DNA of 4,489 nucleotides, from IMG/VR virus record IMGVR_UViG_2671180268_000011. One strand, 5' to 3'. Positions 3,001 to 4,489 of this stretch are shown one piece after another. The position numbers were made by a program. Source of the stretch: a virus (Duplodnaviria > Heunggongvirae > Uroviricota > Caudoviricetes). The stretch's first letter is position 1, and the number at the start of each line of letters is the position of its first letter.

Positions 3001-4489
3001 CCCACCAACATAGTCAGACTGGGCCCAGAACGAATAGCGGGAGTCAACCTACTGGAATGTTTCCGGCAGGGAGTACTCAAGTTAGCGGGACTAATCAGGT
3101 TGGTATCAGTGGCTCATTAACCAGTGGCACCTCCCAATGGGTAGGTAAATCATCTTCAGAAGGAAACCATACACACTCACTGTCCGGCACAGCAGCATCT
3201 GCGGGTGCACACGCGCATACTGTCGGTATTGGTGCTCATACGCACTCTGTTGCGATTGGTTCACATGGACACACCATCACCGTTAACGCTGCTGGTAACG
3301 CGGAAAACACCGTCAAAAACATCGCATTTAACTATATTGTGAGGCTCGCATAATGGCATTCAGAATGAGTGAACAAGCACGGACCATAAAAATTTATAAC
3401 CTGCTGGCCGGAACTAATGAATTTATTGGTGAAGGTGACGCATATATTCCGCCTCATACAAACAAAAAACAGCCTGATGCAGGTAGCCAGTGAGCATATA
3501 GCGCCGCTTCAGGATGCTGTGGATCTGGAGATCGCAACGGAGAAAGAAACCTTGTTGCTGGAAGCTTGGAAAAAGTATCGGGTGTTGCTGAACCGTGTTG
3601 ATACATCAACTGCACCGGATATTGAATGGCCAGTAGCACCTATAGGGTAAATTCGTAATGATTACCTAAATACGTTATTCTTTTGTTAAAAAAGTGATTT
3701 TGCTATAGGTAGGGAGTATGTTCTTGGATTAAGAATAAAAAATCGCCATGAAAGAGCTTCATGGCGAGTACATAAACGTACAAAATGTGATGAAAGTAGA
3801 GTGGCGTAAGCCACTATATTAAGATATGACAATAGCGAAGAAAAGTAAATAACATTTTATGGACGTTTAATTGTTAATTATAAAAACTAGAGTGCCCGAT
3901 ATTGTTTATCTTGCTTTAAAATAATGTACTCAAACCAAATTTTTGAGCTAAAAGCTCAAATAATATAAATGCAATAATAATGTTTAATAAGACAATTAGC
4001 TTGCTTTGTATTTTCATTTCGGAATACTGTTAAGTAACTTTGATGACCCTAACAATAGATCGGAATTTTCTTAGAGTCAATGGTCACTGTTTTTGCTTGC
4101 AAAGCAAATGTTTTGGTGGTTATAAGTCGTCTTAATATAGTCACGCATGCAACTTGTTCCATGCGGAGATTAAAGATTGGAATATAACGCGAAGATGGAA
4201 TTAAATTACATTTGCAATAATTAATTTATTATTACTCAATAATTACCGATATTATTATTGTAAATTAATCATTAGAATGCAAAAAGAAATGTAACGGCAA
4301 AATAAGAGGACGATAGCTGAGAAAAAAGCGTGCTTTCCCAATCTGGGGCAAATCACGTCTGAATGACACCTGAAAACAGGTGGTAGCCTCAAGAAGGCTG
4401 GTGATGCTGCCAACTTACTGATTTAGTGTATGATGGTGTTTTTGAGGTGCTCCAGTGGCTTCTGTTTCTATCAGCTGTCCCTCCTGTTC

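What the first reader, a model, noticed from the sequence alone, without database searches (positions are those of the whole stretch)
3731..4080. Possible leftward small-gene unit: promoter, 33-codon hydrophobic ORF and strong terminator
On the minus strand, a TTGACT-17-TATTGT element (4080-4052), a 33-codon ORF encoding MKIQSKLIVLLNIIIAFILFELLAQKFGLSTLF (4017-3916) and a perfect 10-bp hairpin plus U-tract (3767-3731) lie in order, predicting a transcript of about 310 nt. A single hydrophobic helix of about 30 residues is the size class of type I toxins and small membrane proteins, but no known family is recognised. A noncoding RNA is an equally valid reading. Caveats: no clear ribosome-binding site, and AT-rich DNA produces I/L/F/K-rich ORFs by chance.
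Basis: inference. Interest (0 to 1): 0.55.

Follow-up and report, generated by a model that had tools for sequence, protein, structure and literature searches.

The report
Unannotated prophage YncL-like small membrane gene
The leftward unit is real: it is a self-contained cargo gene of a lambda-like E. coli prophage that encodes a 33-residue membrane peptide distantly related to the stress protein YncL, is missed by genome annotation although about 15% of complete E. coli genomes carry it, and ends in an unusually conserved RNA tail of unknown role.

Summary
The window is the right arm of a defective lambdoid prophage: lom, stf, a broken tfa, AT-rich cargo, then IS1. The unit lies in a 578-nt module directly after tfa. 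That module is in 830 of 5426 complete E. coli genomes, at three or more prophage sites, and PGAP annotates nothing there.

The ORF is very probably a gene. It matches the NCBIfam YncL model (E 1.3e-5, 25 bits, below the 35-bit cut-off), while eight composition-matched shuffles do not. hhalign gives 90% probability. dN/dS is 0.11 and 0.04 against the two most divergent copies. The ORF has no indels, unlike its flanks.

No conserved antisense partner was found, so a type I toxin-antitoxin reading is not supported. The last ~130 nt of the transcript are the best-conserved part and look like an Hfq-type sRNA, but reach no Rfam threshold and have no identified target.

Verdict: a new, divergent, prophage-borne member of a known small-membrane-protein kind. 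Expression and function are untested.

The parts
3651..4228 (-). Whole conserved cargo module ('moron') that carries the unit, directly after the tfa stop codon
   Evidence: This 578-nt stretch is what is shared by all sequence types (99%, 96%, 94%, 91%, 79% identity). It occurs in prophages at different chromosomal sites. GC is 0.29-0.32 against 0.55 in stf.
4123..4211 (.). Conserved upstream island, function unknown (possible regulator-binding region)
   Evidence: 85-90% identical to the 79% type, between less conserved flanks. It holds no conserved ORF. The 37-aa ORF 4049-4162 that one phage record annotates loses its ATG in other types.
4052..4080 (-). Sigma-70-type promoter TTGACT-17-TATTGT
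   Evidence: It is kept as TTGACT-17-TATCGT, and is the only promoter-like site, in the 79% type. It lies in an 85-90% conserved island. Activity was not tested.
4018..4045 (-). Predicted short 5' leader, A/U-rich, weakly structured, without a Shine-Dalgarno sequence
   Evidence: The transcription start near 4045 is inferred from the -10 position.
3916..4017 (-). 33-codon ORF plus stop: YncL-like small membrane protein
   Evidence: NCBIfam NF000537 YncL: E 1.3e-5, 25 bits, colinear over residues 1-28. Natural variants also hit and 8 shuffled decoys do not. hhalign gives 89.9%. dN/dS is 0.11 and 0.04. Intact in 78 of 80 loci. Predicted TM segment is residues 7-23.
3861..3915 (-). Variable spacer of the 3' UTR
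   Evidence: 45-75% identity, with several indels, against the 79% type.
3816..3860 (-). Conserved patch upstream of hairpin 1. It could be an internal promoter, a processing or Hfq site, or the 5' part of an sRNA
   Evidence: 74-90% identity where the adjacent spacer drops to 45-55%. The sub-threshold MicC alignment begins at 3856. Its role is unresolved.
3800..3815 (-). Hairpin 1: AGUGGC-UUAC-GCCACU
   Evidence: Predicted in the single-sequence and the consensus fold. Two natural stem changes (C-G to U-G, U-A to U-G) keep pairing only in the minus-strand RNA.
3768..3799 (-). Single-stranded U-rich linker, the most conserved stretch of the module
   Evidence: 1 mismatch in 32 nt against the 79% type. 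P = 1.6e-4 under an assumed 30% background divergence (flanks differ by 28-34%). Unpaired in the predicted folds apart from a weak 4-bp stem.
3731..3767 (-). Intrinsic terminator: 10-11 bp stem, short loop, U tract
   Evidence: The stem is invariant apart from one singleton allele. The U tract varies (UUUUUU, UUUUU, UUUCUU).

Best explanation
The unit is an autonomous cargo gene ('moron') of lambdoid E. coli prophages. It sits directly downstream of the tail-fibre assembly gene and is transcribed against the late operon. Its own promoter (4080-4052) would give a transcript of about 310 nt that ends at the intrinsic terminator (3767-3731). The transcript encodes a 33-residue single-pass inner-membrane peptide that is a divergent homologue of the small stress-response membrane protein YncL.

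Shown here: the elements exist, the ORF evolves under purifying selection, it is homologous to YncL, and the module moves between prophages.

Inferred: that it is expressed from the prophage in the lysogen; that the peptide inserts with its lysine-rich N-terminus inside; and that, like YncL when overproduced, it partly dissipates the membrane potential and shifts the host towards a stress or low-metabolism state. That could serve lysogen fitness or exclusion of other phages.

The last ~130 nt of the transcript (3860-3731) are under separate, stronger constraint. They probably act as RNA, in stabilisation, regulation, or as an sRNA. That role is not identified.
For: - Anatomy.
- Homology to YncL, HMM evidence: the NCBIfam model hits at E 1.3e-5, colinear from Met1. 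Both natural variants hit at E 3.7e-5 and 7.5e-5, while 0 of 8 composition- or segment-matched shuffles hit it. hhalign gives 89.9% probability, E 1.7e-6, 38% identity over 29 columns.
- Homology to YncL, pairwise evidence: the Smith-Waterman score against K-12 YncL is 60. Across 20,000 segment-preserving shuffles the mean was 23, sd 5, maximum 51. The hydrophobic segment is residues 7-23 in both proteins.
- Coding constraint: against the 79% type pS = 0.51, pN = 0.088 and dN/dS = 0.11. Against the 94% type dN/dS = 0.04. The other two frames give 0.3 or >2 and contain stops. Fisher tests give P = 1e-4 and 1e-3. Differences by codon position are [7,1,9] and [1,1,4]. The ORF has the same length and no internal indels, while the flanks have several.
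- Moron features: GC 0.29 against 0.55. The same module follows tfa in prophages at ybhB/bio, ydfJ and beside sitABCD, and it occurs in isolated phages mEp332, PhiR70_1 and ev099. It is present in 830 of 5426 genomes.
- YncL biology: overproduction causes sublethal depolarisation, the phage-shock response and nucleoid condensation (PMC12542507). The Salmonella yncL transcript was first catalogued as the sRNA STnc1110 and is sigma-S dependent (PMC5437024).
- 3' part.
Against: - There is no Shine-Dalgarno sequence.
- The HMM score of 25 bits is below the curated 35-bit cut-off, so this is not an orthologue of YncL.
- Only four peptide variants exist and nothing more divergent than 79% DNA identity was found. 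The comparative signal therefore rests on few independent substitutions.
- Rare broken alleles exist: a frameshift in two short contigs and ATG to ATA in one.
- The promoter match is ordinary by count, and its -10 is weaker (TATCGT) in the divergent type.
- No transcript, protein or phenotype data were available.
- The function is carried over from overexpression studies of a 35%-identical protein.
Confidence: 0.75

Rival explanations
1. Dual-function locus. Besides the peptide, the conserved 3' ~80-130 nt (3860/3820-3731) is released as an Hfq-type trans-acting sRNA. It would come either from an internal promoter or by processing of the 3' UTR, and would regulate host or phage mRNAs. This adds to the best explanation rather than excluding it.
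For: - The 3' block is the best-conserved part of the module: 90-100% against the 79% type, while the spacer just upstream is 45-65% with indels.
- Hairpin 1 to terminator (73 nt) carries 3 mismatches by my own reading of the alignment. P = 3e-8 under an assumed 30% background divergence.
- The overlapping 48-codon ORF is broken in other types, so the constraint is not on a protein.
- The architecture is hairpin, U-rich single-stranded linker, then terminator, with z = -7.1.
- One-sided stem changes are G-U compatible only on the minus strand.
- Sub-threshold Rfam alignments on the minus strand are all to small regulatory RNAs: VrrA (23 bits, E 0.046), MicC, Aar, Hrs12, Esr41 and ncS54. One weak plus-strand viral pseudoknot hit (SBRMV1_UPD-PKf, 14.1 bits, E 4.1) also appears.
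Against: - No Rfam family reaches its gathering score.
- There are no compensatory double changes.
- No convincing conserved internal promoter could be placed (reading).
- No target was found. There is no significant complementarity to its own start region, the patE or yncL start regions, or to ompC, ompF, ompA or lamB (z > -2.3), while the MicC-ompC control gave z = -5.3.
- The conservation could instead reflect mRNA stability or termination requirements, or recombination. One mosaic junction lies in the terminator (L051 type).
Confidence: 0.3
2. Type I toxin-antitoxin module. The peptide is a membrane toxin whose translation is held in check by a cis- or trans-encoded antisense RNA.
For: - The size and hydrophobicity match type I toxins.
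- YncL overproduction depolarises the membrane and lowers viability (PMC12542507).
- YncL and the Hok toxins both appear among the small membrane proteins reported as RseP substrates in vivo (PMC10470546).
- One plus-strand promoter-like site, ATGACA-18-TAACAT (3826-3855), would drive an RNA antisense to the ORF.
Against: - That plus-strand promoter is not retained in the 79% type, and no plus-strand terminator follows it in the window (3300-4489) or in the IS1-free relative until more than 1 kb downstream.
- The leader is only about 28 nt and weakly folded. Type I toxin mRNAs typically have long structured leaders (the comparison is from my own knowledge).
- No Pfam or NCBIfam toxin family matches.
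- No repeated or paralogous copies of a partner RNA exist elsewhere: the 3' block occurs only with the unit.
Confidence: 0.08
3. Purely noncoding RNA gene. The 33-codon ORF is a chance product of AT-rich sequence.
For: - There is no Shine-Dalgarno sequence.
- AT-rich DNA (GC 0.29) readily yields I/L/F/K-rich ORFs.
- The strongest conservation is in the 3' noncoding part.
- Rare alleles with a lost start codon or a frameshift exist.
- The Salmonella yncL transcript was itself first listed as an sRNA.
Against: - Homology to YncL is specific, with negative shuffled controls.
- dN/dS is 0.04-0.11 only in this frame.
- Indels are absent from the ORF but present on both sides. A 5-nt deletion at its end recreates the stop codon in place.
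- Other chance ORFs of the region are not conserved.
Confidence: 0.07

Closest known systems
YncL (E. coli K-12 b4598, 31 aa; NCBIfam NF000537); the Salmonella orthologue transcript was first listed as sRNA STnc1110
   Same: Significant colinear sequence similarity from Met1: 11 of 31 residues identical, with shared N12, L19-F20, L22 and [K/R]-F-G at 26-28. The length class is the same, the hydrophobic segment is in the same place (7-23), and the leader is short. In both cases a small transcript could be mistaken for an sRNA.
   Different: It scores 25 bits against a 35-bit equivalog cut-off. It lies on prophages rather than between patD and ortT. It lacks the strong Shine-Dalgarno of yncL. 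It has a ~185-nt 3' UTR with a conserved structured end, which yncL lacks. It is present in only about 15% of genomes.
Phage morons encoding small membrane proteins near the tail genes, e.g. HK97 gp15 superinfection-exclusion protein (recalled from my own knowledge, not checked here)
   Same: A promoter-gene-terminator cassette of deviant base composition, inserted next to tail genes of a lambdoid phage and encoding a small membrane protein.
   Different: There is no sequence relationship (PHROGs finds nothing). It is much smaller. An exclusion phenotype was not tested.
Type I toxins (Hok, Ldr, TisB, ShoB, ZorO, DinQ)
   Same: A peptide of about 30 residues with one hydrophobic helix. By analogy with YncL it is likely to perturb the membrane potential.
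   Different: No partner antisense RNA was found, the leader is not long and structured, and no family matches.
Enterobacterial Hfq-dependent sRNAs (MicC, VrrA, Esr41) and prophage sRNAs such as IpeX, DicF and AgvB
   Same: The 3' module has the generic layout: stem-loop, U-rich linker, terminator with U tail. It gives full-length but weak alignments to several such Rfam models. Prophage cargo regions are known to carry sRNAs (PMC4104026).
   Different: All scores are far below the gathering thresholds (23 vs 50, 22.8 vs 90, 15.6 vs 102). The AgvB-type sRNAs sit at the PR' moron site, not after tfa. No MicC-like complementarity to ompC was found.

Membership tests
YncL (NCBIfam NF000537, equivalog) | HMM score at or above the curated cut-off (35 bits) | tested here: not met
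   25.0, 23.5 and 22.5 bits for the three peptide variants tested. It is therefore not filed as an orthologue of YncL.
YncL-like small membrane proteins (homology in the wider sense) | Statistically supported, colinear sequence similarity to YncL | tested here: met
   E 1.3e-5 against 18,950 models, with 0 of 8 shuffled decoys hitting YncL. Smith-Waterman score 60 against a maximum of 51 in 20,000 segment-preserving shuffles. hhalign 89.9%, E 1.7e-6.
YncL-like small membrane proteins | About 30 residues with one central hydrophobic helix and basic residues on both flanks | tested here: met
   33 aa. The lowest summed insertion free energy is -2.4 kcal/mol for residues 7-23, against -0.7 for the same residues of YncL. 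Net charge is +2 N-terminal and +1 C-terminal.
YncL-like small membrane proteins | Chromosomal context between patD and ortT | tested here: not met
   K-12 yncL lies between patD and ortT. This gene lies after tfa in prophages.
YncL-like small membrane proteins | Inner-membrane location, stress or stationary-phase induction, membrane depolarisation on production | not testable with these tools
   Known for YncL only (PMC12542507; PMC5437024).
Phage moron | Own promoter and terminator flanking a gene not needed for the phage cycle, inserted between conserved phage genes | tested here: met
   Promoter and terminator are predicted and conserved. The position is between tfa and the att-proximal cargo. 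The patE cassette that neighbours the unit in L001 occurs in Sakai Sp1 without it: 1869 nt at 99.2% from L001 8859 onward.
Phage moron | Base composition unlike the neighbouring phage genes | tested here: met
   GC 0.29 (unit) and 0.32 (cargo) against 0.55 (stf).
Phage moron | Expressed from the repressed prophage | not testable with these tools
   No expression data were available.
Type I toxin-antitoxin | Small hydrophobic toxin ORF | tested here: met
   Toxicity itself was not tested.
Type I toxin-antitoxin | Conserved antisense or divergent antitoxin RNA gene with its own promoter and terminator | tested here: not met
   The only plus-strand promoter-like site (3826-3855) is lost in the 79% type. 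No plus-strand terminator lies in the window region scanned (3300-4489), and none within about 1 kb in the IS1-free relative.
Type I toxin-antitoxin | Match to a described toxin family | tested here: not met
   Pfam, PHROGs and NCBIfam give nothing except YncL.
Hfq-dependent sRNA (for the 3' module 3860-3731) | Membership of a curated RNA family | tested here: not met
   The best hits are VrrA at 23 bits (gathering score 50), MicC at 22.8 (90) and Esr41 at 15.6 (102).
Hfq-dependent sRNA (for the 3' module) | Conserved secondary structure supported by covariation | tested here: inconclusive
   21 predicted pairs, with 0 compensatory changes and 3 pairs showing one-sided wobble-compatible changes. 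There is too little variation to decide.
Hfq-dependent sRNA (for the 3' module) | Own 5' end (promoter or processing), Hfq binding, and a base-pairing target | not testable with these tools
   Candidate targets tested in silico were negative.

The most novel reading that the evidence does not exclude
The module is a two-in-one lysogenic-conversion cassette. It would carry a membrane-depolarising YncL-like peptide and, from the same transcript, a conserved Hfq-type sRNA (3860/3820-3731). Together they would let about 15% of E. coli strains' lambdoid prophages reprogramme host envelope or stress physiology, or exclude competing phages. If so, a widespread dual-function phage RNA has gone unannotated.
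Probability: 0.25. Interest if true: 0.6.

Novelty: new member of a known kind. Interest (0 to 1): 0.4.

Why it matters
Small membrane proteins are systematically missed by annotation. PGAP calls nothing here in 830 complete E. coli genomes. The peptide also occurs only twice, unnamed, among about 15 billion predicted proteins.

A prophage-borne relative of YncL links a host stress-response peptide, recently shown to depolarise the membrane, to mobile phage cargo. It offers a simple test system: lysogens of mEp332 or PhiR70_1 with and without the 350-nt unit. That system could show what such peptides do for a lysogen.

The strongly conserved 3' RNA end is a separate lead for a phage-encoded riboregulator.

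In practical terms, the NCBIfam YncL model could be widened, or a sister model built, so that this gene is annotated.

Tried and rejected
- **Homologue searches.** The search for homologous proteins refuses queries under 40 aa. tblastn of the peptide and of YncL against phages returned nothing even though the exact ORF is in four phage records, probably because of low-complexity masking, so it is uninformative. phmmer against 1.84 billion representatives found only the peptide itself and a frameshifted allele.
- **More divergent copies.** The genome-contig scan with the linker pattern gave only chance hits in unrelated taxa and no enterobacterial species representative. Viral, metagenome and peptide-pattern scans gave the same five sequence types, none below 79% identity.
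- **Literature.** Full-text searches for the peptide and for the RNA sequences found nothing. The AgvB/AsxR-type prophage sRNAs are at a different phage site.
- **Other ORFs.** The 37-aa ORF 4049-4162 (annotated in PhiR70_1), the plus-strand ORFs at 4040-4187 and the 48-codon ORF through the terminator are all disrupted in other types.
- **Target predictions for the 3' module.** Its own start region, the patE start region, the yncL start region and the tfa 3' end gave |z| below 1.4. ompC, ompF, ompA and lamB gave z above -2.3, with a positive MicC-ompC control at z = -5.3.
- **Module boundaries.** Short partial matches (H80, H144) turned out to be IS1-mediated deletions, not natural moron boundaries.
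- **In-ORF palindrome 3942-3960.** It is flagged as terminator-like, but one pair is broken without compensation in the 79% type, so it was not treated as functional.
- **Start-codon hairpin.** It forms in both types only in shifted registers, so it is not covariation.
- **Sigma-32 and sigma-S readings of the promoter.** These are leads from memory only. The spacing does not fit sigma-32. A C at -13 and TCTATTGT resemble sigma-S promoters. Neither was tested.

Full report
**Context.** The window is the right arm of a lambda-like E. coli prophage. It holds the 3' end of lom (1-171), a terminator, the side tail-fibre gene stf (270-3353) and a broken tail-fibre assembly gene tfa (3353-3650). Then comes AT-rich unannotated DNA (3651-4399), followed from 4400 by the left end of IS1. 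GC content falls from 0.55 in stf to 0.32 in the cargo region and 0.29 in the unit.

**The observation.**
- TTGACT-17-TATTGT at 4080-4052.
- A 33-codon ORF at 4017-3916.
- A hairpin of 10 Watson-Crick pairs plus one G-U at 3767-3743, with a U tract down to 3731.

A promoter-like match on its own means little here, since 6 were found against 4.6 expected. This one, however, is the only such match preserved at the homologous position in the most divergent copy. It also lies in a locally conserved island. The terminator is strong: the last 103 nt fold with z = -7.1. No Shine-Dalgarno sequence precedes the ATG.

**Distribution.**
- The stretch 3651-4330 occurs in 830 of 5426 complete E. coli genomes. 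It is always chromosomal, and PGAP annotates nothing under it.
- It also occurs in the isolated phages mEp332, PhiR70_1 and ev099, whose records annotate other, non-conserved ORFs.
- What all copies share is a 578-nt module (3651-4228) directly after tfa. It is found in prophages at ybhB/bio, at ydfJ and beside sitABCD.
- Eighty full-length copies from genomes, viral contigs and metagenomes fall into five sequence types of 99, 96, 94, 91 and 79% identity.
- Nothing more distant was found, and no other enterobacterial species representative carries it.

**Homology of the ORF.** The peptide matches one family out of 18,950 in NCBIfam: the 30-position model of the stress-response membrane protein YncL. 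The match has E = 1.3e-5 and 25 bits and is colinear from Met1 to residue 28. The two natural variants tested match as well, while none of eight composition- or segment-matched shuffles matches YncL.

Against K-12 YncL (MNVSSRTVVLINFFAAVGLFTLISMRFGWFI), 11 of 31 residues are identical without gaps. The alignment score of 60 exceeds all 20,000 segment-preserving shuffles, whose mean is 23, sd 5 and maximum 51. A profile-profile comparison gives 89.9% probability. The hydrophobic segment is at residues 7-23 in both proteins.

**Coding constraint.**

| Comparison | dN/dS in the ORF frame | Differences by codon position | Fisher P |
|---|---|---|---|
| Window vs 79% type | 0.11 (pS 0.51, pN 0.088) | [7,1,9] | 1e-4 |
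| Window vs 94% type | 0.04 | [1,1,4] | 1e-3 |

The other two frames give ratios of 0.3 or above 2 and contain stops. The ORF keeps its length and has no internal indels, whereas both flanks have several. A 5-nt deletion at its end recreates the stop codon in place. The ORF is intact in 78 of 80 loci. The exceptions are one homopolymer frameshift and one ATG-to-ATA allele among those 80, plus a second short contig with the same frameshift.

I conclude that this is a real gene for a YncL-like peptide. It is not an orthologue of YncL. Its score is below the 35-bit cut-off, its context is different and it lacks the strong ribosome-binding site of yncL.

**What it probably does.** YncL is a validated 31-residue inner-membrane protein, induced by heat shock, minimal medium and stationary phase. 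Its production causes sublethal membrane depolarisation, the phage-shock response and nucleoid condensation (PMC12542507). In Salmonella its transcript was first listed as the sRNA STnc1110, and its expression needs sigma-S (PMC5437024).

By homology and context, I take the unit to be a moron. On this reading the lysogen expresses it from its own promoter, against the direction of late transcription. Its peptide inserts into the inner membrane and modulates membrane potential or stress physiology. That may benefit the lysogen or exclude other phages. These steps are inferred. Only the anatomy, the selection signal, the homology and the mobility of the module are shown.

**The 3' end.** The most conserved part of the module is not the ORF but the last ~130 nt of the transcript. 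Against the 79% type, identity changes along the 3' UTR as follows:

| Stretch | Identity to the 79% type |
|---|---|
| 3904-3850 (variable spacer) | 45-65%, with indels |
| 3859-3830 (conserved patch) | 85-90% |
| 3820-3732 (hairpin 1 to terminator) | 90-100% |

The 32-nt linker between hairpin 1 (3815-3800) and the terminator has a single mismatch. An overlapping 48-codon ORF is broken in other types, so the constraint is not on a protein. The three one-sided changes in predicted stems all keep pairing through G-U, which for hairpin 1 works only in the minus-strand RNA. There are no compensatory double changes, because there is too little variation.

Rfam gives only sub-threshold alignments. 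On the minus strand they are all to small regulatory RNAs, led by VrrA, MicC, Aar, Hrs12 and Esr41. One weak plus-strand hit to a viral pseudoknot also appears. I found no convincing internal promoter and no target. Complementarity to its own, the patE and the yncL start regions, and to ompC, ompF, ompA and lamB, is at background. A MicC-ompC control scored z = -5.3. An RNA-level function of the 3' end is therefore likely, but its nature is open. I give the sRNA reading about 0.3.

**Rivals.**
- Type I toxin-antitoxin is not supported. The single plus-strand promoter-like site antisense to the ORF is not conserved, no nearby plus-strand terminator follows it, the leader is short and weakly folded, and no toxin family matches.
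- A purely noncoding RNA is disfavoured by the homology and the frame-specific selection signal.

**Comparison with what is known, and novelty.** The closest known entity is YncL. The closest known kind of arrangement is a phage moron encoding a small membrane protein. The gene appears to be undescribed. It has no annotation in RefSeq genomes, occurs twice and unnamed among about 15 billion predicted proteins, and gives no full-text match.

It is a new, divergent, mobile member of a known kind rather than a new kind of system. Interest is moderate at 0.4. It is a widespread overlooked gene with a clear experimental path and an intriguing conserved RNA tail, but it does not challenge current understanding.

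Noticed in passing
window 3353-3650: tfa is a pseudogene. Only 298 nt remain of the 582-nt gene of relatives, after an out-of-frame internal deletion from '...IPPHT' to 'TKNSLMQ...'. Together with the IS1 insertion, this marks the prophage as defective.
   Followed up: partly
window 3430-3610 (+): Strong match to Rfam IS009 (RF02111; 165.8 bits, E 2e-40). It lies entirely inside tfa coding sequence, so this 'sRNA family' here coincides with the 3' part of a tail-fibre assembly gene.
   Followed up: no
window 4400-4489; L002, L160, L161: The IS1 left end starts at 4400, and strain 2009C-3133 has an IS1 at the corresponding position. 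In other strains IS1 elements have deleted (fM51a) or truncated (504838) the unit, so this AT-rich cargo region is a recurrent IS1 target.
   Followed up: partly
L001 8858-10727 (beyond the IS1 in the window): In IS1-free relatives the module is followed by the 3' half of a tRNA-Ser (serU-like) sequence. From L001 8859 onward, 1869 nt are 99.2% identical to O157:H7 Sakai prophage Sp1. The stretch includes an AraC-type regulator that is 247/248 identical to ECs_0287, at the locus the literature calls PatE (OI-8), and ends in an IS3 remnant. Sakai Sp1 has this cassette without the YncL-like unit.
   Followed up: partly
window 4123-4211: A ~90-nt island upstream of the promoter is 85-90% identical even to the 79% type, yet holds no conserved ORF on either strand. 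Its function is unexplained; it may be a regulatory binding region.
   Followed up: partly
L005 4824-5686: In strain GF54 the module is bracketed by two 3' fragments of tfa (4824-4982 and 5587-5686). This suggests the module is exchanged by recombination within tfa ends.
   Followed up: no
window 228-256 (+): A strong intrinsic terminator (CAGCCCGCCGGTTCAGGCGGGCTTTTTT) lies between lom and stf. It accounts for a weak Trp-leader Rfam hit.
   Followed up: no
window 600-1640: The N-terminal half of Stf is a long Ala/Ser/Thr-rich low-complexity repeat region that creates long spurious ORFs in other frames and strands.
   Followed up: no
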